A stretch of 64,000 nucleotides of DNA from assembly GCA_023231475.1 (NCBI GenBank), contig JALJEE010003214.1, positions 1-64,000 of the forward strand. The letters are read 5' to 3'. Positions 4,499 to 62,290 of the stretch are shown here, piece by piece. The translations under genes were made by a program, and so were the position numbers. The stretch is from Seison nebaliae. Its lineage: Eukaryota. Below the pieces are notes generated by a model that saw only the letters and a list, made by a program, of their open reading frames with translations, did no database searches and was not told the origin of the DNA. Within the stretch, counting starts at the first letter, position 1. Every line of letters starts with the position of its first letter.

Positions 4499-4535
4499 GG
4501 GCTTGCGTAGCGCAGTAGTCTACGCACGTTCCACG
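4499..4535 (+). repeat. Isolated 5' head of the SINE-like element
   Basis: GGGCTTGCGTAGCGCAGTAGTCTACGCACGTTCC aligns to the heads of the copies at 4583 and 10304. Confidence 0.6.
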
Positions 4536-4582
4536 CATTTATGCGAAACAACGTATCCTGCATTCGATACGAAAATTATATA

Positions 4583-4740
4583 GGGGAGTGCGTTGCGCAG
4601 TGGTCTATGCATGTTCCCAACGGCACAACCATTGAGACGGACGTCTCAAGAAAGGTAGGGGTCTCCTATCAGTGATCGTAAGGAAGGAGATCACTCAAAC
4701 AATATTCAATTGCCCAGATTGGGATTTCAAAAAAAAAAAA
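4583..4740 (+). mobile_element. SINE-like element, copy 1 (tRNA-like A-box head, hairpin body, poly-A tail)
   Basis: Head GGGGAGTGCGTTGCGCAGTGGTCTA resembles the tRNA A-box TAGCNCAGTGG; A12 tail at 4729-4740; AAAATTATA on both flanks (possible TSD); clearly homologous to 10130-10304 on the minus strand. Confidence 0.75.
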
Positions 4741-4990
4741 TTATAACATAAATTTAAAAATTACTAACGATTTCTTTCTTGAAATAGTAAATTTTAGTCA
4801 ACTTTTAAAAATTTTCATCTAATATAAGACAATTATCAAAGCTTTTTATTAACTAAAACTCAAATTTGAAGTAATTCATTAAAGGAATCCTTTAGAAGTT
4901 TTCCAACAGGAGGCAGATTCCTTTCTAACATCCATTTATCTTCACACTTATAATTTTGCGTGCTTAATGGAAAGGTAAATGCAATTTAAA

Positions 4991-5187
4991 ATATTTACGC
5001 GAACTGCTGTACAATAGGAAACATAATTTCCATAAAAATTATCAGGATTCCGTACAACTCATATTTGCACGATAAACACAAGTAATATTACTGAGTGTTG
5101 ACAATCCGATGGCTCGTCGAGCACATACTTCCACTTATCCCTGTGCTTTGGTTAATCTCAAGGAGAAATTGTGAACCTGTTTTTTTT
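4991..5187 (-). ncRNA. Candidate divergent U1-like (U1/U11 architecture) Sm-class snRNA with an oligo-A 5' end
   Basis: Minus strand reads: AAAAAAAA-CAGG; SL1 with loop GAUUAACCAAAG (cf. U1-70K loop GAUCACGAAG); SL2 stem UAUGUGCUCGA/UCGUGCAAAUA with apical CAACACUCA (cf. AUUGCACUCC); CCUG closing the junction; directly followed by AUAAUUUUUAUGG (Sm-site-like); 3' hairpin containing GUUCGC as in U1 SL4. Structure was folded by eye; ends are approximate. Confidence 0.6.
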
Positions 5188-5439
5188 GAAAATCGATTTT
5201 TTTTCTTATTCAATTACATATTATATTCAATAATTATTCTTACATTACACAAATGATAGATCGGTGAAAACTTTAAAGATCCGACGAATAAGGGGTAGTT
5301 GGAAAGTTTTAAGCAAATACTTTTCTCTTCTAATCGATCTTATCGATTTTCCTGTTGTTAGAGAAACCGGAAGAAAAAATGAGTTTAATTCAGAGAAACA
5401 ATTCTAAACAAAAAAAGTGAATTGTTCGTTTTGCAGGAA

Positions 5440-7011
5440 ATGTTATTTAGGAAATGGTACAAGATTTCTCCTCTCATCATAACCATTCTCATTTCTATCA
5501 TTTATTACGACTGGAATTTAAATTCAAAAAACGTCGAAACTTCAAAAATTTCTCAACCAGAACGTTTCCGATTATTCGGCAGTGTCCTCCATTGTTTTGA
5601 GAATGCAGCAATTTTATCAGAAGAGAATAAATGTATTTTACGATCAATTCTCATCGATAAAGAGACGAAGAAAGACGTTTTGAAAGAAAAGAAGATTTGT
5701 TTGATCAATTTGGGCAATATGGAACGATATCAATCGGAGAGTATTATTCATATCTTGAATGATCACACAGTATTTGGTGTACATTTATATATTGTGGAAT
5801 GTATTTTCAACAAGAAATATATTTATGGAAAGAATAAAATCGAAATAAAATTATTCTCAAAGAAATCGAAAAAACCGTTAAAACGACATAAACCGATAGT
5901 GAGTGTTAAAGAATTCGATTTGATTTATTATCAGAATTCAAATAATTTATTCATTTGGAATACTTGTATTTGTACCTCACCAATTGTCCTAAGTAATCTG
6001 GGAGATGTTCACGATTTTCTGACATATATTTATCAATATTCATATCTCAAAATCTCGGCAATTTTCATTTATTATACGAAAGAAGTTCATCATTATCTCA
6101 AATTGGTGAAAGAGAACTTGGATAAATTTCAATTGGAATTTTCAACAATTTTCAAATTAATCGAATTCGATTTGAAAGATTTAGAACAAAAAGTTGAAAG
6201 TGATAAATTATTAATAACAAATTACTGTTTATCGACGAATAAATATCGATGTAAGTCGTTCATAATTGGAGATCCTGATGAGATTATTCTTCCAGAAAAT
6301 CTTCTCCATTCTTCTACTCTGTCAAGACCAATCGATTATTATTCATTTCTTCTCAATACAACTCATAATTATAATTCGTTGAAAAACCCATTTCAACGTT
6401 GTTCCATATTCGACGGTCATATAGCATTAAAAGAAGAGGACGAAATTATTTTAATGAAGAAAATGAAATCCACTTTCCATAATCATCTTCAATCTTTTAC
6501 AGTCAAATTTTCAAACTTCATCAGAATTCAAGTCTCGACCGTTTACGACCCAAAATATAACGTCCTGCCATTCCCCGAATATTTTCGAGAATTGGATGAG
6601 AAGTTATCCGAATTTAACAAACTCAAAAAGAGAAGTGAATTTAAAGGAAAACGATTCTTACGAGGAATCGCTTTTAAGAATCCTCGTTTTTCAGGACAAC
6701 GAAAATATTTTTGTCGATCTCCTCATCTTGTCGGTTTCAATACTCATCAAAGCGTCCAAACCCTTTCACAATATCGAGATAAAACGGCGGACAGGCAAAT
6801 TTCAGTAGATCATCTCCTCTCAAAAGAATTTCAAACAACTAAAGAAACTGTCTTATCGAGTTTCGTTCCAAAATTCGTTGGAATCAATTTACATCATCGG
6901 ATCAGTATGAAATCTTTATGGAAGAAATCGATTGAAAAAAATAATTATCATTACTCTGATTTCTATTTCATCCATTTTGCTAATGTTTCACTAAATTTCT
7001 GGTTACAATAA
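5440..7011 (+). CDS. Type II membrane glycosyltransferase family 92 (DUF23)-like protein
   Basis: N-terminal signal-anchor (LIITILISIIYY), CICTSPI and NYCL...FIIGDPDEIILP (DxDE motif typical of GT92); single exon; ATG at 5440. Confidence 0.65.
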   Translation: MLFRKWYKISPLIITILISIIYYDWNLNSKNVETSKISQPERFRLFGSVLHCFENAAILSEENKCILRSILIDKETKKDVLKEKKICLINLGNMERYQSESIIHILNDHTVFGVHLYIVECIFNKKYIYGKNKIEIKLFSKKSKKPLKRHKPIVSVKEFDLIYYQNSNNLFIWNTCICTSPIVLSNLGDVHDFLTYIYQYSYLKISAIFIYYTKEVHHYLKLVKENLDKFQLEFSTIFKLIEFDLKDLEQKVESDKLLITNYCLSTNKYRCKSFIIGDPDEIILPENLLHSSTLSRPIDYYSFLLNTTHNYNSLKNPFQRCSIFDGHIALKEEDEIILMKKMKSTFHNHLQSFTVKFSNFIRIQVSTVYDPKYNVLPFPEYFRELDEKLSEFNKLKKRSEFKGKRFLRGIAFKNPRFSGQRKYFCRSPHLVGFNTHQSVQTLSQYRDKTADRQISVDHLLSKEFQTTKETVLSSFVPKFVGINLHHRISMKSLWKKSIEKNNYHYSDFYFIHFANVSLNFWLQ

Positions 7012-7111
7012 ATTACATTGTTCATTTGATGCGAAAGAAAACTGTTGTAATCATGAAATATTGACGAAAAGTAATATTTATATTATTATATTATTGAATA
7101 ATTATAATTAT

Positions 7112-8051: not shown

Positions 8052-8552
8052 ATGTCTTTGGATACTAATAATTCTGATGATGTGGAGTACGAAGAGTTGT
8101 CCGAAATTGACAATGATGCTGATTCAATTGGTGAATGCAAGAAAGAAACGGGAAGACCGAAAAGTTCTAAAAATTCTTGTACACCTTCCACGAATAAAAA
8201 AACCTACTTGGGTACAGGTGTAGATTGTTATTGTTCGATCAAAAGAACGGAATTGGTATCAATCGAATTAGAACTAGATCGTTTGCTTTCCGAGAATGTG
8301 GAGTACAAGAAGGACATGGTTGTTCTCTCAGAAAAATTGACGGAAATATATGAAGAAGTAAAAAAAATCGACGAAAAATTATCGTCAAATATTGTTCAGC
8401 GAGAGAGCTTAAACAATTTGTATAGAGCAATTACTCACGATTCCATCAATTCTGTTCCTGTAGCTAATGAGAATACCAAGATTAATAACAAGAAAAACTT
8501 ATTGAATAAGAAAAAAAATCGATTTTCAAAAAAAACAAAAAATCATCGATGA
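8052..8552 (+). mobile_element. Second ORF1-like fragment (acidic N-terminus, coiled coil, Lys-rich end)
   Basis: Same architecture as 1129-1890 and adjacent to the LINE remnant; no direct sequence identity verified. Confidence 0.35.
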
Positions 8553-13441: not shown

Positions 13442-15736
13442 ATGGACTGCAACTTCATCAACTTATCAACACAAATAATTCTCTTGATTATTATAATCAT
13501 CAATTCTGCCATCTCCCAACCATCATCAACGAAACCAAATATCGTTTTCATTTTGGCTGATGATTATGTTTGTGTTCATTCTTCCTCATTTCTTCCCGCT
13601 ATTTCTGCTAAATCAATTTTTCACTTCAATAATTTTTAGTTTGAACTGGAAAATTTATCGGAATTTTTTTTGGGTATAAATTAAAACCATCTTCAGACGA
13701 CCTTAACTAATTTTCCACATTTGTTTTCACAACTAATTTCTCATATTTGGACGAGGAGAAAAAGTTTTATTGCTATTCGAATATTCAGTTTGCTAAAACC
13801 GTCATTGATGGAATTGTATAAATTTTTCCTTTACTGGTGATATAATGTTAAATTGAATTAAATGAATTTATAATAATAATATCTTTCGATGTTTTTAGGG
13901 TCATTATGATGTCGGTTTTCATGGATCGACTGATATTCCAACACCAAATATCGACGCTTTAGCATATGATGGTATCATTCTCGATAATTATTATGTCCAT
14001 CCAATCTGTACGCCATCTCGTAGTGCTTTGATGACGGGAAAATATGATATCCATTTAGGAATGCAACGGAGTGTAATTGTAGGGCCCGAACCGTATGGTT
14101 TGAGTACGAACGAATTATTGATGAGTGATCATTTGAAACGGCTTGAATATTCGACACATATTGTTGGGAAATGGCATCTCGGTTTCTATCAACCTCAATA
14201 TTTACCAACCAATCGTGGTTTCGATACTCATTACGGTTATTATTTAGGAGAAGAAGATTATTGGACACATATCTCTTCGGATTACTTGAATTATTGGGGA
14301 ACTGATCTTCATAACGATACGGAAACGGATCGGAGTAAATTTGGGAAGTATTCGGCCGATTTATTTGGAGAAGAAAGTATCCGTCTCCTCAACAAACATA
14401 ATTATGAGAGAAATCCAATTTTTCTTTTCTTATCATTCCAATCTGTCCATTCCGGCAATTCTTGGTCACCATTACAAGCACCATATAAATTCTATAAACG
14501 ATTGAAACACATCAAAAATAAACATCGACGAATGTACGCCGCTATGGTTATGGCAATGGATGAGAATATCGGCAAACTCGTCCAATCATTACATCAACTA
14601 CACCAATTGAATAATACCATCATCGTTTTCTCGACAGATAATGGTGGACCAGCAGCTGGTTTTGATTGGAACTTCGCCAGTAACTATCCCTTACGTGGGG
14701 TGAAGAATACTTATTGGGAAGGTGGGATCCGTGCTAATTCTTTCATTTGGTCCTCTCAATTTCAACCACGGAAAAAACCAAGAAATCGTGTCAGTAAACA
14801 ATTTATGCACATTGTCGATTGGCTTCCTACATTATATGAAGCGATTGGCGCCGACCCAAAACAATTGAAAGATATTGATGGAATTTCGCATTGGAAAGAA
14901 CTGAAAGAATTGATGGAAACGGATAAACGTAAAGAAATCATTCACAACATCGATCAAGTCAAATCTATGACGTTATCGAACGGAATGAAAATCCACATTA
15001 ACACCACATACGGCCCTCACTGGAACGGATGGTATCGAACGGAACAAATTGAAAGTAAAAGTTGGAAAAAAATTTTAAAATTTCCCAACATTTCATTTTT
15101 CAAATTTTTTTATTTTTATCAAATTTCTTATTTTTATCAAATTTTTTTTTAGACCTAATCAAAAAATCTTTAAAATCCGTTGAAAATTTCGATAAATTAC
15201 ATAAAAATTTGTTTAATGATCATCTCCAATTCGTGTACGAACATTCGATGAAATGGCAAAATGGAACATCATCCAATTTGTCACCGATTGAAATTCATTA
15301 CATTCTCGAACAATATTCGACCGTTCTATTTTCCTTCTCCATTTCTTTCATCCATTTTATAATTTTCCTTTTCTCATTCTCTCCAAAAGGATTATTGGCT
15401 AATCGAACGAGAACCGGTGCGTATTATATGTGAGAAATCAACAGAAATTTTATGTGATCCTAATCAGCAACCTTGTCTTCATAATGTCACGTTAATTTTC
15501 CCATTTTTCACTAAACTATCATTCGACAGACGAACAGAGCCGATCCATGTGAATATAGGAATTTGGCAAACGAGCAACCAAATCAATTAATTGAATTGAT
15601 GACGAAATTGTTGTCATATGTTCCAAGAATAGTGTCGATTCGGAATCGGAAACCGGATCCGAAATCGAATCCTGAGTTACATTCGAACGTCTGGGATAGT
15701 TGGGAGAATGATACTTTCTGTCATTCCATTAATTAA
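13442..15736 (+). CDS. Arylsulfatase B/I/J-like secreted sulfatase, 5 exons (13442-13567, 13899-15060, 15153-15322, 15390-15490, 15538-15736)
   Basis: Signal peptide, PNIVFILADDY|GHYDVGFHG, CTPSR formylglycine motif, GKWHLG, FSTDNGG, NYPLRGVKNTYWEGGIR, PCLHNVT|ADPCE. The donor of intron 2 could alternatively be 15055. Confidence 0.9.
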
Positions 15737-18362: not shown

Positions 18363-19634
18363 CTATTCATTCGGATTATCAACAAATCGTAAACATTTTG
18401 CAGCTCGACTTTTTGATGGTGTGCAACCACCATCTTTTTTCCGTCGTTTTTCTTCCTCATTCCGTTGTCGTGTCAATTCCATCAATTTATGATAACCCAA
18501 CACTCGTTTTTTCGGTTCTTCAATTTCAGACATTTCACATCCATGTAAAGTGTCGTGGAGAGAAGAATATTTCGACGGTTCCTTGATGGTATTGGAATAA
18601 GACATTCCGGTTCCATCCGTCACCGTTTCATGGAAATGATTTTTTACATTCGACACTTTCTCCAGATATCGTTTGATGTAAGGCGATGGAGGAACGAAAT
18701 CGAATTTTAATTTTTTCTTCTTATCCTGATGATTCGTTGGAGATGGTTCTGATGTTCGACATTCTCGTTTCTTCGATAATCGTCTATCATTCACGAAATG
18801 ATTATTGATCTGTGTTGTACTCGTCAAATGGCTAATTGAATGATGAGTGTCCTTCTCATGGAAAATTGATGGTAATTCGGTTGATTGTACCGTCGTCTTG
18901 ATAATGGGAGTAGCAATTGACACCGAATTTAATGTGTCACTACTCGTTTGACATCGAAGAGTTTCATTTGCTATTTTCAACTGTTGAACTTTTTCTCTCA
19001 ATTCCTTATTCTCTTTTTCCATGATGGTGAATAAAATGGAATTTGGATTAGTCTTCGAATCTTTCGACGACGAATTCAATTCATCAATTCTCATTTGAAG
19101 TTGCTGATTCTCTTTTTCGACGATCGCTAATTTCTTCTCCATTTGTCGAGCGGAATTCTTCGTCTCTTCGAACATCTTTTTCAATTCCGAATATTTTTCC
19201 TTTGCCACAATCGACGTCGCTTTCCATTCCTCCATCTCTTTCAATTGATTCTTGTTCTGTTTAAACATCTCCAAACGTCGTTCACCTTCTTCAATCTCGT
19301 GATTAAATGAAGCAATAATCCTCTCCAATTGATTCTTTCGTTTCAATCGCATCAATTGCGTTCCCTCTTCTAATTGTTCATCAATCTTCATTTCATCCAC
19401 AAATTCTGGACCACAATGAATCGGAATTATCTTCGAATCAATAAACGATAATCGACAATGTGGACACGAATCTCGATGTTTCCGCCAACTAGTCAGACAA
19501 CTCTCACAAAACAGATGTCCATTCTCGCAACTCCGACCATCAATCGCCTTAAACGGGAAATGAGAATTATAAAAAATAAATAATAAAAAAATAGAAACGT
19601 TTGATAGACAAATCCCACAACAATAAGTAGTCAT
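18363..19634 (-). CDS. C3HC4 RING E3 ligase with coiled coil, RNF219/OBI1-like; 51-nt intron at 19548-19598
   Basis: Removing the in-frame GTTTCT...TAAG intron gives CGICLSNAIDGRSCENGHLFCESCLTSWRKHRDSCPHCR, followed by RKNQLERIIASFNHEI (recalls the RNF219 post-RING helix) and a long coiled coil. Confidence 0.7.
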   Translation of the reverse strand: MTTYCCGICLSNVSIFLLFIFYNSHFPFKAIDGRSCENGHLFCESCLTSWRKHRDSCPHCRLSFIDSKIIPIHCGPEFVDEMKIDEQLEEGTQLMRLKRKNQLERIIASFNHEIEEGERRLEMFKQNKNQLKEMEEWKATSIVAKEKYSELKKMFEETKNSARQMEKKLAIVEKENQQLQMRIDELNSSSKDSKTNPNSILFTIMEKENKELREKVQQLKIANETLRCQTSSDTLNSVSIATPIIKTTVQSTELPSIFHEKDTHHSISHLTSTTQINNHFVNDRRLSKKRECRTSEPSPTNHQDKKKKLKFDFVPPSPYIKRYLEKVSNVKNHFHETVTDGTGMSYSNTIKEPSKYSSLHDTLHGCEMSEIEEPKKRVLGYHKLMELTRQRNEEEKRRKKDGGCTPSKSRAAKCLRFVDNPNE

Positions 19635-20414: not shown

Positions 20415-22004
20415 ATGTTTTTGTTCCGTACAACAAATATTCGTTTGATGACTGCTCTGTTAATTTTATTCGGGGAATATGTTTCTTTAGTTTTTTCAAT
20501 TTTAAGATTTCGTGCTCAATCCACCACCAGTAATAATATAAGGGATGTTGTTGTTGTTGGTGGTGGGATAGTTGGATTGGCGTCATCACAGGCATTATTG
20601 ACGAAATACCCCAATTTAAATGTGACGGTTTTAGAGAAGGAATCACAATTAGGTTCTTCTTTCTCCTTTATTATCCTTTTCATTGTTTAAATGACGGTTG
20701 TTTAATAGCTTCTCATCAAACTGGTCATAATAGTGGAGTGATTCATGCAGGAATCTATTATCAGCCAGGAACATTGAAAGCGAAATTATGTGTGGAAGGG
20801 ATGGAAAAAATTTATGATTATTGTGACAAATATTCAGTTCCATATAAGAAATGTGGAAAAGTTTCTTTTTTTTTCCTCGAATTCACTCGCCAATTTCTCT
20901 CTCCATGTCAAATAGATAGTTGTTGCAATTGATGAGCATCAGATTCCTTATTTGACTCAATTGTATGAGAGATCGTTGGAGAATAAAGTGAAGGATGTAA
21001 AATTGATTAATGGGAATGACATTCCTGAAATTGAGCCAATGTGTCGCGGATTGAAAGCCATTCATTCACCTCATACCGGTATCATCGATTACGCTGAACT
21101 CTCACGTCAATTTGGTGTGGTGATCAAAGAGAAGAATGGCCAAATCCTGCCAAATACGAAAGGTATAGGTTTCGGAACTGATTGTGAAGGAAATGTCGTC
21201 ATTCTCACTAACAATGAGGAAGTTCGTTGAACGACATTTAATTTCTTACAAATTTATTTGTTAATTATTTTCCATTAACATACTTAGTATCGAGAGATAC
21301 GTAGTCGATTTGTGGTGACATGTTGTGGTTTACATTCGGATAAGATTTCCGTTTTAGGTGGATGTAAATCTAATCCGAAAATAATTCCATTCCGTGGCGA
21401 TTATTTAGTGTTGTCGAAAGAGAAACAACATCTCATCAAAGGAAATATTTATCCGGTTCCTGATCCTCGTTTTCCATTTCTCGGTGTTCATTTTACGCCT
21501 CGAATGAACGGTGATGTTTGGGCGGGACCGAACGCCGTTTTAGCCATGAAACGAGAAGGATATAAACCCACCGACTTCGTTTTTAAGGACGCACTCGAAC
21601 ATGTATTTAATACGTTAACATTTTATCTTTTAAACTTGTTTGAAATTCTCTTGGAATTTAGTGGACTAAGGAAATTGAGTATGAAGTTTTTGGGTGTCGG
21701 TCTCAAAGAAATCTATCGAACTTTAGACATTTCAGCTACGGTGAAAATTCTTCAGCAATTCGTTCCCGATGTGGAGACGAAAGACTTCCAACGAGGACCA
21801 TCCGGTGTTCGAGCACAAGCTATCGACACTGACGGTAGTTTAGTGGACGATTTCATTTTCGACACCAATTCCAACAAACCAGATTTAAAAGGGAAAATTC
21901 TTCACGTTCGTAATGCACCCTCACCAGCCGCTACCTCATCATTGGCCATTGCGGATATGGTGGTCGATGAAATGGAAAGGCAATTCCATTTAAAGGAAAT
22001 TTGA
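20415..22004 (+). CDS. L2HGDH: L-2-hydroxyglutarate dehydrogenase, mitochondrial; introns 20459-20506, 20653-20708, 20861-20915, 21222-21287, 21614-21661
   Basis: [100 protein letters not shown]. The first intron is the least constrained. Confidence 0.95.
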
Positions 22005-33135: not shown

Positions 33136-36100
33136 TCACATGTTCATAAACCGTCGACAACATTCCATGACTCGTGCTGCATAATCCAATGCTTGTTTGC
33201 ACATTTCTATAAGGGAAAAATTAAATTAATTGGACGATTAGAAAAGGGGGAGAAGAAAAGGAAGAAAAACCTGATGAGCAGATATCAAGAGGAGAGCGAG
33301 TGGAGGAAGGATAAAGTAATTTGTCTTTCGTTCTTCCTACTAACAAATAGAAGCGTTTCGTACTTTCTTCGATTTCTGGAGATAATCCCTTCGACAACAG
33401 AGTTAGATCGGTGAAGAATGTCAAATTTTGTTCGTTCATGTAAAAGTGACACGCTTTCAATATCAGTTCGACCGCGTGTACTGCTTTGAAGCAGACCCAA
33501 TCATTCGCTGCCGATGTCATGTCTCCATTTGTCGTGATGAGATCGTTCGTTGTCGCATCATAACAATGTTGAGCGTGTTGGACATATGCTTTCGCTGTCG
33601 TCTGCATTCGCATCGCTTCTTGAGGATCAATATTGTCATTACTTCTCTGATGTTGATTATTGTATTGATAATTGGAATCGAATGGATCTAAAGAAGAAAC
33701 GGTAAATAAAAACGGTAAATAAAAATAATGAACTTTTCGTACTGGCATCTTGATAGAATTTCTGTTCTTGTTGTTGTCGTTGACGATAAGCTTCAGCGTA
33801 AGATTTCCTCGAAGCGTTAGGTCGATTCGATTTCGGATCGTTCTGATTCTTATTGTTATCAGTGGAATTGTATTGATAATCCGATTCGTATTTATATTTA
33901 TTCTCTTGAGCATCAAAACATTCAAAGAGCATTGATGTCGGATTGGTCGTATATTTAGTTTCGATGACGGAAATATATTTGAAAATTTCGTCAGCGAAAT
34001 CCGTATGATCCTTCAAATGTTTATCGGGATGCCAACGGAGTCGTAATCGTCGCATTTTCGATTGTCTCTCAGATTTGGTTGGACGATCGAGAATGTCTTT
34101 TATTTCGATGAGAACACACGCCTTAATATATGTGAGAGCATCGTCTTTCGTTTTACCGTTATAGAGAGGTGAATAAAATGGATAATCATTCTTTGAATAA
34201 TCTTCATGAAGATCATTCGGTTTCTTTTTATTAGTCGATTCATTTTCCGTTTTCGTTTCTGATGGTTTTTCTGATGTTGTCTCTTTTTTCGTATCGGTCG
34301 ACGTTTTGGTTGTTGATGGTTCTCGCGTTAAATCGGATTGAGAAGAATAAGTGGATGAGGAAGAGGATGATGAGGAAGATGATGATGGAAATGGTGACGA
34401 TTGACGAAAATTGTCAGATGATTTTTTAGTCGTTGACGGTTTTCTCATAAAATCATTTTGATCAAATGCTGTTGTCGTCGCTTTCTTATTATATCGTTTC
34501 TTCTGATTCTGTTGTTGTTGTTGTTGTCGTTGTTTGACGTTGGTGAACCAGGAATCATTTGGAAGAACTTTAGTGGCGTCATTAATTCTCTGAACAGAAT
34601 GACGGAAGAGAAAAAGTTGAGGAAATGTAATTCGAATGATGAGAGTGGAAAGATCGTTGATTGTCATATTTCCTGATCTCGAATTATCTGATGGTTCCGT
34701 CTTCGATGATTTCATATGATCCTGTTCACACAACAATCGACGATTTATTAATAAATCACTTCCATGTGAATTGATTAATGATGAAACGGATGGCATTATA
34801 CTCGCCAATTCTTTTGAATCATTCAAATTATCTTGATGATTATGATGATTATGATGATGGTGATGATGATGATATCGTTGATCACCATTTATTATTTTAT
34901 ATGATTCCGATGTGGCATCTTGATTGGAACGTTCATTAATATCTAACAAATTCTCCGATGTCGAACGTTGATGATGAGATGAATTATGATATTTCGATGA
35001 ATTGAGAAATAAACTGGAAAATTCTTCAGAATTCTGTTGTTGTTGATGATGGATGGGAAGAATGTATCGATCATTGAATGAATGTTCATTCAGATCGATA
35101 ATTTCACGATCATTCTCCATATTCGTCGATTGATGATGACGAATGATTTGTTCTTTAGCGATGGATGAATAAATCGTTTTCATTTGATTATCATTAAATG
35201 ATTTACGGAGGACGTTTGGCATCTGATCTTTCGATCGAGACGAATCATAAAGTTGAATATAAATATATTTATTCGAATATTGAACGATACGACAGAGAAT
35301 TCGTTGAATATATTCACCATTTCTTTCGATTTGTGCATCCTCACAATCCTCGTTGATTTTCGAGAAATTCTCATGTTGCTGATACGATTGGAAGAGTTCG
35401 GAACCGGCGGAGATTATTTCACGAATCTCGTCATTATAACAACGACATTTTATCACATACATATCGTTTATGTTGAGGAATTTTTGATAAATATGAAAAT
35501 TATTCAATGGAGCCGTAGTAGTAGTAGTTGTTGTTGTTGTTGATGATTTGATTTTGGCTCGTTCAACTTCCATCAATTCGGAGAGTGGCATCAAATAAAG
35601 AAGATCATCATCACTAATATCATAACGGAGCATAAGTGACATATGTTTCTGTTTATCTTTCAACATATCTTGATTCACTTTCTTCTCACCACCATTCATA
35701 CCGTTTAATGATAATAATTGATATCGATGAATACGTTTGGTATGGAAAGATGAGAGAATGGTATTGGAATAATGGGAACCAGATGACGGAATATAATTTA
35801 GATCAGAAATCGCTCTCAAATATTCCTCGTTCTCATCAGACGATAATGAATTCGTATAATAATTGGCAAGGAAGGTAGACATATGTGGAATGGACGTGGC
35901 CAACAATGAGGAGAAGACGCTGAGATCGAAAATCATATCGGAGAAAAGGAGAGACAATTCGGTGGCGAGTGCCAAAGGGAAATAATTTCGATCCGCATAA
36001 TTGACATTGATGAAAATTTTATAACGGAGAATCATTTCTTTCGATGATTTCGTCGGCAAATGTGACATGATATTATCCTCGTAATAATAATATAAATGTG

Positions 36101-47480: not shown

Positions 47481-50400
47481 TCGAAGATTCGTTGACGTCT
47501 CTGTTGAGTAGAAAAAGAAAAAGAAAAAATTTTTATTTCATTTATTCTCAAATTTTCTTCACTTAATCATCATCAATATTTATATATGTCTATTTTAAAG
47601 TTTACCATCAATTCCATCAATCGAAGAATGACTCATTCGATTACCTTCCTGCCCCCTCCCTCAAACACATGTCACAACGAATGGATGAATGAAGATGATT
47701 CAGAATGACTCATTTCTCATCAACAACGAACAATTCATGAAAATTTAAAAATTTAAAATTTCCCTTCAAATTCTTCTTTTTTGAAGACAAAAAAAACCAT
47801 AAAAAACTTTGTATGAAGGAAATTGTCTTTCTAATCCTGACTAGCGAAAATGGGAAATCCATTTGTGCTATAAAGAATTAAATGGGAAATTCTTTTTCTT
47901 TCATTGAGCCGACAATTTCTAATTCGCGGACAACGAGAGATGCAACGGCGACGAATCTTATCGCAAATGGTGAGAGAATATATGGAAGTTGTATGATGGA
48001 AGAAAGTTGATGGATTTTGATGGAAATCGAACGTCATCATTATCCTCGCCTCATTTCCATTCATACTCGTTGCAAGTTGCGAGTGGTATAGCAGTGAAGT
48101 GTTGTCGAGAGATAAGAGAAAGAATTAGTTTCTCTTATGAAAATAAACTTTTGTTTCTTCTTCTTCAGTTTTAAAACTTCAACTTTTTCTTCTGCTAAAC
48201 TAGAACGTAAAATTCTCTCGCTCATTCGACGAAGATCGAGTGGAGAGGAGCAAATAAGAAGAATTCCTGAGTGAAATTCTTAGAGAACATCTGATATTTA
48301 CAAGATACATACAGCTGTCGTGGTGGAGTGAGTAAGTTCATGTAAACCATCATCTAGATGGCAACGACATATTATCATGATGATGATGTTGCAAATTGAG
48401 TTAAATAGAAAAGTAGATTTATGCTGGTTCGCATTTTCAGGGAGAGACGGAGAGATGTAGAGAGAGCGGTAAAGAGAATTCAACTAATCAAATAAGACGG
48501 AAGAATAATGGATAAATATGACAATATCTTTTATTAATATTGTGGTCTATGGTTACTCTCTGTGCGATAAGGAGAAAAGGGCGAAACTAAATTTACATAA
48601 GAACAATTACCACAAAACTAGTGAGAAAAAGAAATGTTGTATTGTGTATAAATGTGTGTAAATGTGTATATGTGTGTGATGTGATTCGTGTTAGAAGAAA
48701 TGAATAACAATAACAACAATAATAATAATAATATGCCAATGAATGAACTTCGGAATAAATGTGTATATAGATAGATAGATATTCCTGTGTAGACGTGGAG
48801 ATGTAGAGGAAGAATATGAGAAATGTGGAAGGAGAAGAGGCAAATGATGAGCATAGAATGATCTACTTTGTTTAGCAGAGACGAGGGGGAGAACATAGTG
48901 CATGTCATTATCTGGTGGGGGTATAGACGGAAGATGATAGAGAGAAATCCCTTCTCCGACCGAGAGATGATGAGTGAAAGTAGGAAGAAGAATGGATGTA
49001 AACAGAAAATATTGATTGATTGCACAATGAATATTTATTGTGATCAAAAGATGAAAAGTAAATCTGATTGTTAAAATGTTGATAAAACATAAACTTCATC
49101 CACCATCACCCATCCCATCCCATCCGTTCATTCATTCATTCATTCATTCATTCATAATGAACTTTAATCATCTTCTTTTTCCTCCTATCGACCATTTTCA
49201 TAAAATACCTCGTTGAATTTCATCATTCACACCTCGTCGTATTGAGGAACTGCAACGATATTTGTTCACGTCGCGACCAGGTAGAGGTCGTTCTCATATT
49301 GACAAATGATAATTCCGTGGATCGATGTTGGACAACGGTTTCCTATCGTCGAAATGCGATTGATGTAAGAGTTACTTATTCTTATGGACATATCCACCTA
49401 GTTTAAGGTGTACATAATAGGCTAACTAATATCAAATAAGGGAGAGTGGGTTGAATTGATTGGATTCTTATGTAAATGAAGAAGAGTTATCATCATCTGC
49501 CGTCGAATAGGAAAGGAGAATAGAAAGTTTTTCGTAGGAAAAAAGTTGCCGATTGCCTCAAGAAGAAATGGATAAGTAATTCGTCTATGTCTTGGGGAGG
49601 AATGATGGAAGGAAATAATTATTAAAATAATTCTCTGGAATGGAAATCAAACGAAATAGAATTGCTTCCACATTCCTCCCATGCGGCCTTGTTAATAATG
49701 GTTTGTTTTACATTTCCTCCATTTTATCTAACTAACAAAATTCGAATGTGTTTCTGTATACATCACCCAACAGTTACTTCTTTTCTTCCTTTGCCAACAC
49801 AAAAAAAAATAAAAAAAATGATATTTGAAGGTTGGACGGGAAGTAATTGGAAAAAGTAGATCCCCTCATTCCATCCTTCGCAACTTCTGTGAATGATATC
49901 ATTCACTCGACACGGTTAGGTAGGACCATCAGCCACTTAATTCAATCATTCGGGGAAATGATTCTCACGTAGATTAAATTCGAAAATAATCATTCTTTTA
50001 AGCATTTGTCAACAGACATCTGACTCATCAAACAGATATGTCTGTTCCTCCTTCAATTCCATCATCAATGAATGATGACTCATCAATTCTTCATCAATTC
50101 TGATCAACATGTCAATTTGTCGAGTTCGTTCGAGTGATTATCGACATATCGATCTGTTTTCTTAAGGTAACATGATGAACAAACGAGATCAGGTGATAAT
50201 GCTTTTCTCCCACTTTTCATATATTCGAGAGATTGTTCTCGTCGATAAATGAAGAAGATAAATCATTGAAACGGCAAAACAAAAGATTATAATTGAGAGA
50301 AACGGTGAAAAGTGCAAAGGTTGAATTGCTTTCATTCATCTGAGAGTATTATCATTCACAATCTTATAAAAACTTTCTTATCGATCATTCGTCGTCGTCG

Positions 50401-51489
50401 TCGAGTGACGAAACGTCTGAAATTACATTTTTTGGAGATGATTAAATCAGATTTTTAAAATCGCTTTCATCAGACTCTCTCCATCCTCCGACCGGTAGGC
50501 TCTTTTTAAAAAATTCAATTTACTCTATAGATATGATGATGCTTGTTGTTGTTTGATGGTAGTGGTGGTGGTATGAAGAAGTCAATAATCAAATATTTAC
50601 CTGAATTAAATGAAATTATTTCTTCCTCATTTTTACATGTCGATTTCGATTGCTATATCTCTTTAATCGGTTGACGGATGATGAAAGGGGGAATTGTAAC
50701 AAATACATACTGGTGTGTAGGACGAGAAAAAGTTAGAATGTTCTCACATTTCCATGAGAAATTCGATTTGGAATTGAGAAAAGAACGAAATGAGAAGAAT
50801 TCCATTAGAATATCGACAATATCGAGTCAGCCACCACACGACGAATAGTCGTCGTCGTTGTATATAAGAAGAAGAAGCATAATGAATGAATGAATGAATG
50901 AAAGAATGGTAATTCGGGATAGAAATAAAACCGAAATATTAATATACATTGTTGGGTCGGTTTCACTTATCTGACACCAGCGGCTGAAAAGAGGAAGGAG
51001 GGGGGGAGAAGAGATCTCATCCCAATTCGAAAAGTATTGTTCTTCAAAACAAAACTCACTTATTCTCAATCGAATGCGCGTTTCAGACCAATTCAATTGT
51101 GGTTTTGCCTGATAAGAGTAAGGACGAGAAAAAATAGGTATACAAATAAATTTCCTTTCTTTCTTTCCTCCTTCTCCCCTACTCAACTCATAATGGAACG
51201 AGGCGAAGGTTAAGATAATATAATTCGTTTTATTTCTTTCTCCTCATGTTTCCTCGTGTGAACTAGCTTGTCTTCTTTATCATTCATTATCGTTTCGTTC
51301 GGGTGGAGAGGAGAAGGAAAAAAATAGGAAAGAAAATTTCTCTTATTCGTCCGTTTTCTTTCTCTCATTCACAAATTTTGTTACTTCATAATGTCATGTA
51401 ATCGACGCCATGTGTGTAAGAAGAATAATATCATTGTTCAATTAGGCAATTCCATTGGAACTAGTTACGTAAAGATGCACAAAACCGAA

Positions 51490-51520
<31 letters not shown>

Positions 51521-51718
51521 TAGCACGACTGCGAGTCTAGTAGCTAGTTCGAAAAAGTTGCGGTCCTCTTCCTTTCTGACATGTCCCATATGGAATAAAA
51601 GAAAAACACATATACAAAGAGAGGAAGGGATAGAGAGAGAGAGAGAGAGCAAAGAAAACACTTGTGATGGATGTGGAGAGGGAACGTCTGTGACTAAACT
51701 TTAAAAAATGAATTATTT

Positions 51719-54715
51719 TCAGTTTTCACGTAAAGTCGAATGATTAGTAGTAGGAGAAAATTTGCACTCACCTTCAGTTGTTCGTATTTCTATTAAACGT
51801 TTCTGACATTGCCGCCACAGGAGAATCTCAATGTCACCCAATTCACCGTAGCGATCGCTTAACGATTGATTAAGTATTTGAACACTCAATTCATACAGCG
51901 ACTGATTATTTGATGTTTGATTACTGTCGTCGATGGTCGTGGTTGTTGTTGTTGTTGTTGTTGTGGTTTTCTTGTCAATATGAGTAGTGTTTGGGAGGAA
52001 AGATAATAAGTTGAATGAAGCTTTCATTAGGTCGTTGCTGTGTGTAGGAGAATGTTGATAAATGAACAAGAGGAGCTTCGACGAGAAATATTGGAGTAGT
52101 GACGAGTGAACATTCGGATAATTAGGTGTCTCATACGAGTGGATGAGCGAGAGAAAACCGTAGAAAGTATCTGAATAATCGGAAGGAAATAGAAAGATGG
52201 TCGAATACCAATCATCAATTATCGGATCGTTTGGTGTAATGTAATTATTGTTATTTCGATGGGAACGATTTGCTGAGTATTGATAATTCTCTTTAGTTAT
52301 TAACGGATATTGCACATTATTCGAAATGAGTCGTTGCTTCTTGTCGACGCGATTCTCGTCGTTCACTAATCTCGTTTTCGTTCTCTTTCGTTTCGTATAG
52401 CTGTTGTGCTTGTCGTCGATACAACTCCTCGTACGTCGTTGATCATGTAGATTGATGCTATTCTTGTGGTTTGTGGGTGAGCGAGCCCGACTCTCCCCGC
52501 CGTGATTCGCCAGATAGTTCGACGAGTACAAATAGGACGTGGAGAGATACTGTTCATAAATCGAACTTTTCGTCATCACGAACTGATATTGAGATTCGAG
52601 TGCCGTTGGTAGAAGTGGCAAATGGGAAAGTATGTCAACTGTCCCCACATTATACTCTATCAAACAATTAGTCAAGAGTAGTGATGGCAAATTAGTTATT
52701 TGATTGCAAGCGGTTCTCACCGTCTCCATGGTAACAGACGATATTTTATTTCGGTTCCACTTATCGAAAATGACATAATTGTCGTCTTGTGAAGATTTGA
52801 GAAGAATTTCGGTGGGACATCGTTCCCTCGCCAACAGATAATTCAACATGAGCAGTCTCTCCTCCATCGACAGTAGTTCGACAGTGTTCATTTCCATCAA
52901 CGTCTCATCCATGTCATGTCGACTCGATTGGAATTCCGTTATGTCTTCCTGAACGCATTGCCATTTATACTGATTAATAATTTTATCATTCTCATTCACT
53001 TCCACTTTCACCGATTTTCTTTTCGCATCTTCCTCGTCGTCGTTGTGATGGTGAGACAAGTGCCGATAATAAAGTGTCCGTCGTCGACTTTTAGTGATGA
53101 GGAGGAATTTCAATAAATAGAAACGAAGGAGATATGGGGAAAGAATGTTCAATCGTTTCAATTGTAACGATAAATCGATCCGTTGATTCGTTCCCTCATA
53201 CTTGATCGATTCATGACATTCATCCGATGATAATAATTCGTTCGTTAATTTGAAATGATCATTGATCTGCAAATGAGAGAGAATGATGGACATTTCAGGT
53301 GGCACGTTCTGCTGAATGGAGAGAACGGGACGATGTGTCATATAGTCCAATGACTTCTCAAAAGTGTTCCAGGAATTGGCCATGAACAATTCCTTTTGTA
53401 TTTCGATACAACGACAATTCTTCATTTCACTTATCAGATGATTTGCATCATTCATCGAATGTTTCATATTCATCTTCAAATACTCGTAATCATTTATACG
53501 TCGTTGCAATTGATAGAGACGTTGAATGTAATCGAACTCATCCGTTTTCCATGGCAACGACAAGACAAGTGCTTCCTTTAAATTCGTTTCCGTACTTGTA
53601 CAACTACTGTACGCCGAATCGCTTTCACTACCACCCTCCTCCTCTGTCAATTTGTTCTTTATCGTCGCAGTTCGCTGATGATTTGATAGTTGATGGTGAT
53701 GGTGATGGTTTCCAAAATGTTGTTCACAGAATGGATGATGAATCATAAAGAATTCGTTGAATTTCTGTCGTTCTCGATCATTCTTGGCGTTGATGATCTG
53801 CTCCTCTAAACTCGTCAACTCCTTCACGTAGTTGTCGACATAAGCGACAGGTGCCGGTCCGGCGAGAATCATCGGCTGGAAATGAAATCGGAAGATGTGC
53901 GGATGTAAAATGGAGAGTAGTGTCAATTCGACATGTGGTGGAGAACGGACTAAATTCTCGGCGAATTCTTTCGTAAACAATCGACTCATTAATCGACTTA
54001 ATCTTTCATTGGAGTGGGTCGTGTCCAATATCATATCACTCAAATTCACGTACTGTTCGAGAGTGGTATAGAAGATGTCTTTCGTAATTAAACGCGACCA
54101 GCAAAAGAAAGAGAAATGATACTGATATGTTGATGACATGGGAATTTGATGATGTTCCCGATCCAAACGGATGTTTGATGGTAGTAATAACCAAATCACA
54201 TTCTCTACATTGAACCATTTCTTAATGGACGACGATAATTGAGATGTTGCGGATGAATAATCGACCAAACTCAAGATCATCGATGAAAATGATTGAGCTG
54301 AATAATAATTGGTGTAAAGAGACAAGAGATTCGTTCGTCGAATCGATGAGAACGATCTGTTTTTCTGATTGGAAATATTCTCGTAACTCAGATAAAAGCG
54401 AATGGCTCTCATATATTGAAAGAGTAATTTATAATTATCTTCTTTCGATATGGCAGGAAAGACGATGGTACAACGAAATTCCATTTTCGGAGTTTGTTGA
54501 ACATTGAACAATTGCTGATAATAGACATTTGATGAATATGAGATATGATTCTTCTCCTCATCGATAATCGGAATGGAGAATGGTGGAAGATCGAGAAAAT
54601 AATCAAACTTTAACATTTCACTTTGTCGTATGACATTTCCTTTATACTCCCAACAATTCTCATTAAAACTCTCAATTTTATTGTCATCGTTGTTGTTATT
54701 GTTGTTGTTGTTATT

Positions 54716-59584: not shown

Positions 59585-62290
59585 CTTATAGCAGTTCCAT
59601 GAGTTGTATAAGAAGCAATAATTTGACGATCGGAGACATTTGAGTAGAATTCGATAACAATATGGACATGTTATCCCGTCGAATTTTGATAGACTATTAT
59701 CGAGTTCTACTTTATCACCTATTCACCATATACGAGAGATATTTTGGGTGAGGAGGAAAGAAAGAAGAAGAAGAAATAGTGAGATGAATTACCAGTTAAG
59801 TTGGTGAGAGGAAAACCGCAGGAATATTACAATCACATCGACAATTCATAACCTCAATAGTTGTCGAATAAAATTTTATTGATATAAATTAAAAGTAATA
59901 TTGTGTGTATATCGGCAGCGTATGTGGAGATTTCATACAGGCGTACAAACTGTTAAATAATGAGACGGACTGGTAGTCAGTCAGCGGAGAGGAGACTGGG
60001 ACTTAATGAACAAATAATAAAGGAAATATACACATCAATTCCTACCAGGAACAATGGAGATGTTAAAAGAAAAATTAATAAAGATAAATCGAGAAAAAGA
60101 AATTATAGTTCCTTTCCGTCTCTCATCCGACATACACGGACGAGAGGCCAAACAGAGAGAGATCAACCAAAATATCTTAATGACAAATTTTCTTTTCTTT
60201 ACCATCATAAAAATAAAAATTCAATAAATTCTTTTTGATAAAGAAGAAACAGAGATTACTTCAATTAGAGCTCAAATCAAATAGAGAAATACCGTCAATT
60301 CGAAAAAAGAAACGAAGAAAAAATATCGGAAAGAAAGTACACTAACTTCTTCTATCTCTTCTAAATTTAACATTCGTTTTCTATTTCCACAAGAAATGCC
60401 TTTACTTCACATTCACATATGGCAACAGTGTAATTCACCTACCGTCCAAATGAACTTGATGGTGGGAAGTGCGTTGTGGAGGAAATTGGAAATGTCGTCC
60501 AACTATGCAAAATGGATGATAGACAGTTTTCTGTTACGATGACTCATTTCCTAAACGATCAACGTGTTTCGTCCTCTTTTTTTTGTTTCGGGGAAGAGTT
60601 TTTCGATTGAAGAGAAATTCCCATCATATGAAACGGAGAAGATGGTATTGGCAAAATGTGGAGAATATGTAAATGAACAACCTAAATAGGTTGGTTGTGA
60701 TGAACTATGAAATTTGGTTGAATATGAATTACTAATAATTACATAACATGATGAAAGTTTCTTATCTAAAACCGATGAATAAGATAGGAGAGATAGTAAA
60801 TTGGATGAATCTCGATATAATGGTGACATTCGAAGATGTGTGGTGAGCCATAATGTATCCTCCCTCTCGTCCACATATATATCGACATGCCTTTCAGAGA
60901 ATCATTGAAACGGATAAATACTTTTTCCTCCCGAAATACTTCAACTTCTCACAAAGTCGAATCTCAGTGTATTGAACTTGACAGAATTATATTTATTCAA
61001 AAAATCTTTTATTGGAATCCGAAAAAACTCTCTAACATTACTCAAGTTACATCAGTACTTGTTTCGTTCGATAGTCGTGTATCGCCACTCCAACATCGTG
61101 AAGAATGCAGAGAAACACTACGAGTCAAATTGGAAGTTACACGTACTGGAGGGGGAGAAGAGTTTTTTATATGAAACTTCCGATCGGTAGTAGAAAAAGT
61201 AAATAACTTAAGAATTAAGTTTATATGTTGGGATGAATGTGATTTGAAAAATTGGTAGGATATTGATTCGTTATAAGATGAGAAACCTATCCTGTAAACA
61301 ATTCAATGAGAAAATGAGTAATTGATCATGAATCGATTGTTCCGTTCGAACTACATCGTCTGATTATGTAAGAAAGCGGAGAAAGTCGACTATTTTCTAA
61401 TGTCTGTTCCACATACATATTCCCTTCCATATACTTTATCATGTTCATTCGCTATTTACTAATCATATTATTCGTGGCCAATCGTTACGTAAGATGTGGA
61501 CGGGAAGGAAATGTGTTCTGTTCTCTTCATATCGCTAACTATATCAACTGGAATTTACAATCTCTCATAATCCTCACACAAACTAATAAAGCGTTTGTGG
61601 CAATCTCCGAAAGACTATTATTGAACATTGATCCCACTTCATTGTTTAGACATTTACCTCTGAAATGAAGAAGTTTAATAAACATTCCCCGAATGACAGA
61701 AAACAACCAAATCTTTATTAGACTACTCAGACACAACTATTTCTTCCTTTCTCCACTTTTTTCTAGTAAGCGTCCGAAAACTGGACGTAAAAAAATATTT
61801 ATTACAACCTTGATCCATTCCTACTTTCATTTGTACACATGAAGCTCATTCTGCATTGCTCTACGTACGTACAATAACATTTATGAATCGTTTCTTATGC
61901 ACAAGGTCTCTACCATGATACTTATGTGTAGTTCCCTTGTTTGGTCATTCTCTTCCGTGAAATAACCAGGCAAATTAGATGATGATTGGATCAGCATTCG
62001 ACATTATTCGCCCAATGATGATTAATTGTGAATGAAAAATATTTTAATTAATTTCGAAGTAATTAAAATTGGAGATTTAAATATAATTCATATTTACAAT
62101 TAATTAATTATTGAATTATTTACAAATTCAGTTACGCATGACTCTCTTTGGGTAAGCGATTTTTCTTTAGCTTTCGTACAAATTTTTCAATTTTCGTCGA
62201 ACGAAGACTGAACGATATGTTTTGATATCGGGATAGGAAAACAAGGGCACTTATGGTGAAATGGTTATGTGTGGAATCTGATTAACTAAC

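What the first reader, a model, noticed from the sequence alone, without database searches (positions are those of the whole stretch)
4991..5187. U1-like snRNA candidate with its splice-site-recognition end rewritten to oligo-A (AAAAAAAAC)
Seen in sequence (minus strand), in U1 order: A8 leader (5187-5180); CAGG (5179-5176) pairing with CCUG (5046-5043); a stem-loop whose loop has GAUUAACCAAAG (5157-5146); a long second stem-loop with apical CAACACUCA; AUAAUUUUUAUGG (5042-5030) immediately after the closing helix; and a 3' hairpin with GUUCGC (5004-4999). Established: U1 has helix H followed directly by AUAAUUU(G/U)UG, a U1-70K loop GAUCACGAAG, a U1A loop AUUGCACUCC, an SL4 GUUCGC and a near-invariant 5' AUACUUACCUG. 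U11 instead starts AAAAAGG with a short leader stacked on the helix. Inference: this is a U1-derived (or U1/U11-like) RNA whose leader pairs with GUUUUUUUU-like donors, matching the GTT/T-rich donors of all introns in this window and their lack of an exonic AG consensus. Caveats: SL3 is very reduced, the C may be sequestered in the helix, and the transcription start is unknown.
Basis: partly seen in the sequence, partly recalled or inferred. Interest (0 to 1): 0.92.

Follow-up and report, generated by a model that had tools for sequence, protein, structure and literature searches.

The report
Animal U1-like RNA with oligo-A start
In an unidentified animal whose predicted short introns begin GTT rather than the usual GTA/GTG, one 197-base stretch has the predicted layout of the U1 splicing RNA but starts with eight A's and a C, so it is likely a U1 gene rewritten to read those intron starts, although it is too diverged to pass standard U1 tests, its expression is untested and a chance look-alike is not excluded.

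Summary
All motifs are at the stated coordinates. Rfam and a covariance model built from 47 real U1 genes (0.2 bits) do not recognise the stretch, so I do not file it as U1. Four motif or junction models that add a leader derived from the window's own donors rank it first in the window (nulls as good: 2/120, 1/104, 0/63, 0/16). The body alone beats chance in only one of five models. Donors: 10 of 10 short introns read GTT, T-rich at +6..+10, matching A8C. But +4/+5 are not T-rich, -2 is A in 9 of 10, and one likely long intron has canonical AG|GTGAGT. The leader lies in a 37-nt sequence copied exactly at 8501-8537. No paralogue, RNA run or genome was available. Verdict: probably a U1-derived gene with a rewritten leader (0.45); chance 0.30. 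The precedent is Entamoeba; my searches found none in animals. This scan noted GTT donors and a rewritten second U1 earlier in protists, not in this DNA.

The parts
5180..5187 (-). A8 leader; would pair with intron positions +2..+9 (inferred)
   Evidence: pairing counts; donor profile
5176..5179 (-). CAGG, 5' strand of helix H; C5179 is the only C able to pair with donor +1 G. CAG|GTT here also matches the local donor consensus
   Evidence: (pair probability ~0.72)
5130..5175 (-). Predicted SL1: base helix 5175-5171/5134-5130, upper stem 5164-5159/5143-5138, 15-nt loop holding GAUUAACCAAAG (5157-5146), a degenerate U1-70K-like site
   Evidence: not in the unconstrained MFE
5129..5129 (-). Single A between SL1 and SL2, as at the nearly invariant A38 of real U1 bodies
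5061..5128 (-). Predicted long SL2: base helix with 10 of 12 positions pairable; apical loop CAACACUCA (5100-5092); canonical U1A loop not present
   Evidence: pair count read from the sequence
5047..5060 (-). Place of SL3; no stable hairpin predicted
   Evidence: 0.0 kcal/mol
5043..5046 (-). CCUG, 3' strand of helix H, directly before the Sm site
5030..5042 (-). Sm-type site AUAAUUUUUAUGG, single-stranded in the MFE up to its last two G's, which open the next hairpin
5017..5031 (-). Extra short hairpin after the Sm site (not a feature of the real U1s aligned)
4992..5016 (-). Weak SL4-like hairpin with GUUCGC (5004-4999), followed by a T4 run
5178..5214 (-). 37-nt segment (upstream DNA plus A8CA) repeated exactly and inverted at 8501-8537
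8501..8537 (+). Second copy of the 37-nt segment, near the end of ORF 8052-8552
13568..13898 (+). Arylsulfatase intron, donor GTTTGTGTT (putative target)
   Evidence: homology of the downstream exon, upstream exon read from the sequence
15323..15389 (+). Arylsulfatase intron, donor GTTCTATTT; inferred from reading frame only
15491..15537 (+). Arylsulfatase intron, donor GTTAATTTT; inferred from frame and a recalled sulfatase motif
19548..19598 (-). In-frame intron candidate in the RING gene, donor GTTTCTATT; inferred from composition
20653..20708 (+). L2HGDH intron, donor GTTCTTCTT
   Evidence: best of 2 GT/GC-AG options and tied best in the any-dinucleotide control
20861..20915 (+). L2HGDH intron, donor GTTTCTTTT
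   Evidence: best of 8 options and tied best in the control
21222..21287 (+). L2HGDH intron, donor GTTCGTTGA; boundaries weakly resolved (runner-up donor is also GTT)
21614..21661 (+). L2HGDH intron, donor GTTAACATT; best GT-AG option, but non-GT-AG cuts nearby scored higher (212.8 vs 208.1)
33207..33270 (-). Sacsin-like gene intron, donor GTTTTTCTT; frame only
33688..33733 (-). Sacsin-like gene intron, donor GTTCATTAT; frame only
47501..51771 (-). Probable 4.27-kb intron with canonical AAG|GTGAGT donor; joins two long ORFs in phase
   Evidence: not confirmed by RNA
59719..62290 (-). Probable 2.57-kb intron, donor GTTAGT; joins two ORFs in phase
   Evidence: not confirmed by RNA

Best explanation
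The stretch 5187-4991 carries an A8C start, an Sm-type site and U1-ordered motifs, and is likely a highly diverged U1-derived snRNA gene whose oligo-A leader would base-pair with the GTT, T-rich starts predicted for this animal's short introns. Shown: the motifs, their order and pairing potential, and GTT donors in 5 homology-supported introns. Inferred mechanism: Sm proteins assemble on AUAAUUUUU. The eight A's pair with intron U's at +2,+3 and +6..+9. Donor G+1 takes C5179 by one-base-pair strand exchange at the end of helix H, so the donor helix stacks on helix H. The exon side is not read by this RNA because AGG stays paired with CCU; the conserved -2 A would then be selected by U5 loop 1. 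The duplex is A-U only and weak, so it would need protein help (U1-C or TIA-type). A second, canonical U1 may serve long introns such as the AG|GTGAGT one.
For: Junction geometry matches real U1s: helix H abuts Sm, SL1 follows at once, one A, then the SL2 base helix. In that model the body scores 24.8 bits vs null maxima 11.9+-2.6 (0/63). Held-out U1s score 27.7-62.4 (7 loci), pattern-matched bacterial false hits 10.3-17.4 (4 loci). With a leader PWM built only from the donors, the candidate is first in the window in 4 of 4 models (2/120, 1/104, 0/63, 0/16 nulls as high). C-to-SL1-loop distance is 22 vs 19-21 in 47 U1s. +3 T in 10/10 short introns (background GT->T 0.397); +6..+10 T 36/50 vs 48-53% in intron interiors, p 0.0004-0.004; +9 T 9/10, +10 T 6/10. 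Intron-side pairs: candidate above canonical in 9 of 10, 1 tie. The locus is intergenic, with a 50% GC core against 14-36% in the flanks. Precedent: Entamoeba U1 ACAAAC for GUUUGU. The real Giardia U1 lacks the 70K site and SL4. Standard models lose sensitivity on divergent U1s: L050 scores 14.8 bits in Rfam against a cut-off of 69.5.
Against: No Rfam U1/U11 match at E<=10. Own CM: 0.2 bits and mis-registered, below window noise of 8.8 bits, while 9 of 15 test loci, all U1s, scored 69.6-146.5. Body alone is at chance in 4 of 5 scoring models. The one that succeeds was designed after I had seen the candidate and depends on crediting G-C pairs. Folding z -0.89. No U1A loop, no SL3, an extra hairpin, and spacings outside the sampled U1 range (52 vs 36-37; 138 vs 110-127; 37 vs 16-33; ranges partly set by my search pattern). 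+4/+5 are T in only 7/20. RNAduplex: the candidate leader never binds better than -1.9 kcal/mol; canonical is better in 8 of 12, candidate in 3, 1 tie. A8C occurs 7 times in the window. 5 of the 10 short introns were picked by eye knowing the GTT expectation. In yeasts donor shifts came without U1 change. An earlier in-silico Giardia U1 candidate was superseded.
Confidence: 0.45

Rival explanations
1. The stretch is AT-rich intergenic DNA that resembles U1 by chance. GTT donors are read by a U1 encoded elsewhere (canonical or with a smaller change), helped by U-tract binders such as TIA-1 and by U5/U6.
For: Covariance models see nothing. Body at chance in 4 of 5 models. At 1-2% per window, a genome of several hundred windows would hold several equal look-alikes (inference). 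U-rich tracts after weak donors recruit ordinary U1 through TIA1/U1C (PMC2766253 passages). One canonical donor suggests canonical U1 persists.
Against: Junction model: 0/63 nulls for the body; the next real site in the window scores 13.8 against 24.8. The donor-complementary leader sits at the U1 position in all 4 models. TIA binding would not explain 10/10 T at +3 (inference).
Confidence: 0.3
2. It is a decayed or rearranged U1 pseudogene. The body is a real U1 relic, and the A8C is either inherited from a rewritten functional U1 elsewhere or brought in with the 37-nt duplicated segment.
For: Degenerate loops, lost SL3, weak SL4. The leader lies inside the exact inverted repeat, one of only two non-simple inverted repeats of 24 nt or more in the window. 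A multicopy SINE-like element lies 250 nt downstream.
Against: No second copy at 80% identity or more was laid on 4756-5163 in 2 DNA-like runs (flat depth; the tool warns that filters can hide contigs). The helices are rewritten yet still pair, which decay alone would not give (inference). The frame after the 8501 copy stays open 46 codons (6% background), a weak hint that the copy was inserted there and is native here.
Confidence: 0.15
3. It is a spliced-leader (SL) RNA, possibly U1-derived. CAG|GTT at 5177/5176 is its donor, the ~38-nt upstream segment is the leader exon, and the 8501-8537 copy is a relic leader.
For: CAG|GTT fits the local consensus (-2 A, +3 T). The duplicated segment ends one base before that site. 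An Sm site is present.
Against: Single copy. The part after the donor is about 185 nt, longer than SL RNAs as I recall them (recalled, not tested). +6 is C where 8 of 10 donors have T. The copy lacks the final G and is not followed by a clear gene start. No SL family matched in Rfam.
Confidence: 0.07

Closest known systems
U1 snRNA (Rfam RF00003), sampled here as 47 metagenomic U1 genes
   Same: Order of leader, helix H, SL1 loop with GAU..AAG, single A, long SL2, helix H abutting AUAAUUU, then GUUCGC.
   Different: Leader A8C instead of the AUACUUACCUG seen in 105 of 132 extracted matches; 70K loop enlarged; U1A loop and SL3 missing; extra hairpin; about 25 nt longer between C and Sm; no CM score.
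Entamoeba U1 (ACAAAC) and Mastigamoeba U1 (ACGUAC), Roy & Bowser, bioRxiv 10.1101/2022.06.08.495308 (abstract and sections 7, 14-16, 22 read; figures and supplements not available)
   Same: U1 pairing segment rewritten to complement an atypical donor; GUU start; A-rich upstream DNA.
   Different: Those have 1-2 changes in an intact body found by a modified U1 CM and show covariation across species. Here the whole leader is oligo-A, the body is below CM detection, the donors are degenerate, and the host is an animal. The paper also names Physarum as having both standard and modified U1.
U11 snRNA (RF00548); mechanism from PMC11874965 passages
   Same: The 5' end pairs with downstream intron positions (+5..+10 for U11) while proteins read the junction; secondary structure similar to U1.
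   Different: No Rfam U11 match; the loops and GUUCGC are U1-type; the targets here are GT-AG introns with no U12-type consensus seen.
Giardia U1 (PMC3510501 passages)
   Same: A real U1 can lose the 70K site and SL4 and look U11-like.
   Different: Giardia keeps ACUUAC and was validated by RACE and covariation among isolates.
Fritillaria borealis non-canonical splicing (PMC13326754 abstract and section 29)
   Same: An animal with transformed donors.
   Different: There U1 lacks strong complementarity to the donors, and the change is ascribed to m6A and U2AF rather than to a rewritten leader.

Membership tests
U1 snRNA (RF00003) | Covariance-model score at or above gathering (69.5 bits) | tested here: not met
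   No U1 hit at E<=10; own leader-free model 0.2 bits
U1 snRNA (RF00003) | 5' pairing segment ACUUACCU | tested here: not met
   AAAAAAAACAGG; no exact ACTTACCTG in the window, 6 one-mismatch hits vs 4.67 expected
U1 snRNA (RF00003) | 4-bp helix H directly before the Sm site | tested here: met
   CAGG/CCUG, probability ~0.72
U1 snRNA (RF00003) | SL1 with U1-70K loop GAUCANGAAG | tested here: inconclusive
   GAUUAACCAAAG in a 15-nt loop; PWM 4.3 bits; stems pair but are not in the MFE
U1 snRNA (RF00003) | Single A between SL1 and SL2 | tested here: met
   A5129
U1 snRNA (RF00003) | SL2 loop AUUGCAC (U1A site) | tested here: not met
   AUUG and CAC are split by 4 nt; closing-stem term negative; U1A term 0.1 bits
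U1 snRNA (RF00003) | SL3 of about 25 nt | tested here: not met
   14 nt, no stable fold
U1 snRNA (RF00003) | Single-stranded Sm site | tested here: met
   5042-5030
U1 snRNA (RF00003) | SL4 with GUUCGC 16-33 nt after the Sm site | tested here: inconclusive
   Motif present at 37 nt, behind an extra hairpin, with a weak stem
U1 snRNA (RF00003) | Covariation across homologues | tested here: inconclusive
   No homologue found: metagenome pattern 0 hits, no paralogue laid, no look-alike in earlier findings
U1 snRNA (RF00003) | Expression, TMG cap, Sm binding, snRNA promoter, pairing with donors in vivo | not testable with these tools
   No RNA holder listed; no other snRNA gene in the window for promoter comparison
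U11 snRNA (RF00548) | Covariance-model match | tested here: not met
U11 snRNA (RF00548) | 5' end complementary to U12-type donor +5..+10 | tested here: inconclusive
   The leader fits U-runs; none of the 12 introns scored looks U12-type (U12 consensus recalled); minor-spliceosome status of the host unknown
Spliced-leader RNA | Donor site near the 5' end plus Sm site | tested here: met
   CAG|GTT at 5177/5176 and Sm site
Spliced-leader RNA | Leader exon found on mRNA 5' ends | not testable with these tools
   No RNA holder listed

The most novel reading that the evidence does not exclude
An animal has erased the near-invariant U1 recognition sequence and replaced it with a pure oligo-A leader stacked on helix H. 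Its major spliceosome then finds short-intron starts by reading a U-run on the intron side only, in the manner of U11, while a second U1 handles canonical long introns.
Probability: 0.3. Interest if true: 0.85.

Novelty: new variant of a known kind. Interest (0 to 1): 0.6.

Why it matters
U1's 5' end is among the most conserved RNA sequences in eukaryotes. It stays unchanged across 227 of 230 yeast genomes despite donor shifts, and the compensatory rewrites I found in print are in amoebozoans. Searches listed no animal case; subscription papers are outside the library. A full rewrite to oligo-A in an animal would show that donor recognition can be reprogrammed wholesale in an intron-bearing metazoan. 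It would also give a natural test of how U1, U5 and U6 share 5' splice-site choice, and imply that U1 genes reported missing in long-branch lineages may be hidden below covariance-model detection. Even if the RNA is false, the GTT short-intron donors in this animal need an explanation.

Tried and rejected
Rfam scans at gathering and E-value level: only two tRNAs reach gathering score; no snRNA at any level. nhmmer profile of U1 bodies: no hit on the candidate (that run had mis-trimmed starts for some sequences). Own CM R1. Relatives by DNA pattern in metagenomes: 0. U1 pattern in viral contigs: 0. No whole genome is held, so the genome-wide search for a canonical U1, U5, U6 or U1 proteins was not possible. 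Sequencing runs: no RNA holder listed, which is no evidence on expression; X6 and X7 laid nothing. Extra depth over 5164-5231 fits the 8501 copy and perhaps another short match; a closer view was not obtained, so this stays open. Host identity: homologues place it among animals with no close relative (TMEM184C top hits 40-53%; L2HGDH mostly 55-62%; EED 31-41%). 1 of 7 proteins was in the collection, unnamed. A recalled lineage guess led to passages of PMC10125929 that say nothing on donors; the guess is untested and not used. The idea that 5178-8537 is a transposon with terminal inverted repeats was rejected: no target-site duplication in the sequence and no transposase among the ORFs scanned. 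The AAAAAAATCGATTTT motif as a promoter family: 5 hits vs 4.48 expected. Introns dropped before counting because the donor was ambiguous: arylsulfatase intron near 15055 (GTAAAA or GTTGGA), the first L2HGDH intron, and the donor near 59160/59130 (GTTATT or canonical GTAAGT). L140, which I took for a divergent U1 because Rfam misses it, scored only 6.2 in the junction model, so it is a doubtful control. ORF 8052 stays unidentified (Pfam best E 0.046; the atlas search gave no answer).

Full report
Observation. The stretch is intergenic. It lies between a multicopy SINE-like element at 4500-4740 (depth up to 3969 against 11.2; second copy at 10134-10305) and an ORF on the plus strand from 5389 with a weak glycosyltransferase-92 match. 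Its core is 50% G+C against 14-36% in the flanks. The host is an animal with no close relative in the protein collection. I did not identify it further, and no genome is held.

Structure. The MFE closes CAGG/CCUG (pair probability about 0.72) and leaves the leader and most of the Sm site open, but it is no more stable than shuffles (z -0.89) and does not form the proposed SL1. Folded separately, SL1 and SL2 form as proposed (-6.6 and -13.7 kcal/mol), SL3 does not form, and two hairpins follow the Sm site. Forcing helix H and an open SL1 loop costs 3.4 kcal/mol; real U1 bodies cost median 0.1, max 4.8 (41 of 47 testable).

Is it U1? Rfam gives no U1 or U11 match at E<=10 even on 226 bases. I kept 47 of 58 non-redundant sequences, dropping ones with damaged ends, an N, or that looked like false hits, and built a leader-free covariance model. 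The candidate scores 0.2 bits in a wrong register, below the window's best noise (8.8 bits). Of 15 test loci, 9 U1s scored 69.6-146.5, divergent L050 32.3, and L140 9.6. Rfam gives L050 only 14.8 bits, so these models lose divergent U1s, but the candidate fails the membership test. Spacings: C to SL1 loop 22 (U1s 19-21), SL1 loop to AUUG 52 (36-37), C to Sm 138 (110-127), Sm to GUUCGC 37 (16-33) (two of these ranges were bounded by my pattern).

Chance. Sm plus GTTCGCG occurs in 3 of 100 shuffles. A regex loosened for the candidate gives 0 of 400 nulls with three features, but it is post hoc. PWM chains from the 47 U1s put the body at chance: 152/300, 43/120 with helix H, and 45/104 with loop-closing stems. 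A model of the four-way junction taken from the U1 alignment (SL1 directly after helix H, one A, then the SL2 base helix; G-C pairs credited against the AT-rich background) finds this geometry at 5179/5130/5129/5061. It scores the body 24.8 bits against null maxima of 11.9+-2.6 (0/63); the next site in the window scores 13.8, 7 held-out U1s 27.7-62.4, and 4 bacterial false hits 10.3-17.4. A harsher version without G-C or A credit returns the body to chance (12/16) and also weakens true controls (L044 15.2, L050 12.5). All models were written after I had seen the candidate. Adding a leader profile built only from the donors makes it first in the window every time: 2/120, 1/104, 0/63, 0/16. My reading: real support, but model-dependent.

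Donors. Spliced alignment to 40 of the 119 L2HGDH homologues P0122-P0240 gives four introns whose best GT/GC-AG solution starts GTT. Two are tied best in an any-dinucleotide control, one is beaten by nearby non-GT-AG cuts, and one is weakly resolved. The first arylsulfatase intron is also GTT. Five more short introns were inferred by eye from reading frames; three ambiguous ones were dropped. In the 10 short introns T is at +3 in 10 (background 0.397), at +4/+5 in 7 of 20, at +6..+10 in 36 of 50 (interior 48-53%), and at +9 in 9; -2 is A in 9 and -1 is G in 2. Two long introns join ORFs in phase: 62290-59719 with GTTAGT and 51771-47501 with canonical AAG|GTGAGT. So 'all donors GTT' and 'no exonic consensus' are overstated. 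In register, the A8C leader makes 5-8 intron-side pairs against 3-6 for the canonical leader (more in 9 of 10 short introns). By RNAduplex energy the canonical 11-mer is better in 8 of 12, and the candidate never reaches beyond -1.9 kcal/mol.

The duplicated leader. 5214-5178 is identical over 37 nt to 8501-8537, inverted, and it contains the whole A8CA. The frame after the 8501 copy stays open for 46 codons (6% of frames nearby stay open 40). This is a weak hint that the segment was copied from here into that ORF rather than the reverse. The copy ends one base before CAG|GTT, which itself fits the local donor consensus and raises the SL-RNA rival. In assembled contigs of two DNA-like runs, 4756-5163 has flat single-contig depth and none of the 40 difference rows shown falls in it (8 rows not shown), so no paralogue at 80% identity or more was seen.

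Mechanism (inferred). In the U1 alignment the four bases before AUAAUUU pair with positions 12-15, which places CAGG there and leaves a leader with no free C. The donor G+1 could still take C5179 by exchanging with G5043 at the helix end, giving a donor helix of +1..+9 stacked on helix H. AGG stays paired, so the exon is not read. The -2 A would be chosen by U5 loop 1, which binds the upstream exon (PMC10581693 passages). This resembles U11, whose 5' end pairs with +5..+10 while proteins read the junction (PMC11874965 passages). An all-A-U duplex needs protein support; TIA1 with U1C recruits U1 to weak donors followed by U-tracts (PMC2766253 passages). That pathway is also the main non-RNA explanation of the T bias, though not of +3 T.

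Known cases and novelty. Roy & Bowser (10.1101/2022.06.08.495308; abstract and sections 7, 14-16, 22) report U1 ACAAAC in Entamoeba and ACGUAC in Mastigamoeba, cite Physarum, and find no change in other lineages with atypical donors. Its figures and supplements were not available, so I could not compare helix registers. Yeasts keep ACUUACC. Fritillaria uses m6A and U2AF changes (PMC13326754 abstract and section 29). C. merolae lacks U1 altogether (PMC10158995 passages). Giardia shows both that a real U1 can be this degenerate and that an in-silico candidate can be superseded (PMC3510501 passages). Search listings showed no animal U1 rewritten to match its donors; some searches served other questions. 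Earlier notes of this scan describe GTT donors in Bonamia and a second rewritten U1 in a protist (unchecked), and nothing for this sequence or for animals.

Verdict. Works like U1: probable but unproven (0.45). Member of RF00003: not met. Rivals: chance 0.30, pseudogene 0.15, SL RNA 0.07. New variant of a known kind; interest 0.6, and 0.85 if the boldest reading holds.

Noticed in passing
window 4500-4740 (+) and 10134-10305 (-): Multicopy interspersed repeat with an A-tail and a tRNA-like head (resemblance by eye), probably a SINE; dozens of contigs pile on it; no Rfam match.
   Followed up: partly
window 4522-5450: Contig depth is 11-16 here against about 25 for several other contigs, in both runs. 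It could be hemizygous or heterozygous DNA, or a tool effect.
   Followed up: no
window 5178-5214 and 8501-8537: In one search the contig carrying the candidate includes the whole 37-nt segment, which is not what two fixed copies would simply give; the second copy may be polymorphic or assembly-specific.
   Followed up: partly
window 33657-56137 (-): Very large sacsin-like gene (4626-aa and 1472-aa ORFs, C-terminal J-domain-like HPDK motif and a weak HEPN match), probably joined by a 4.27-kb intron with a canonical donor; rich in N/Q/T/S runs.
   Followed up: partly
window 11896-13287 and 16154-17686: EED and TMEM184C are each a single uninterrupted ORF and only about 31-53% identical to animal homologues: an intron-poor, long-branch genome.
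   Followed up: partly
window 1129-1905 (-) and 8052-8552 (+): Orphan coiled-coil ORFs that recall retroelement ORF1 proteins (recalled resemblance; no significant Pfam match).
   Followed up: no
window 7111-7184 and 10628-10700: tRNA-Glu(CTC) and tRNA-Arg(TCG).
   Followed up: yes
L011, L038, L064, L070, L115, L117: Metagenomic U1 genes with ACATACC instead of ACTTACC in the pairing segment (8 of 132 extracted matches): natural leader variants like the one cited for Physarum.
   Followed up: no
L139:91-261, L140:91-255: A clear U1 gene (L139) and a doubtful one (L140) on contigs filed in bacterial MAGs, likely eukaryotic contamination.
   Followed up: partly
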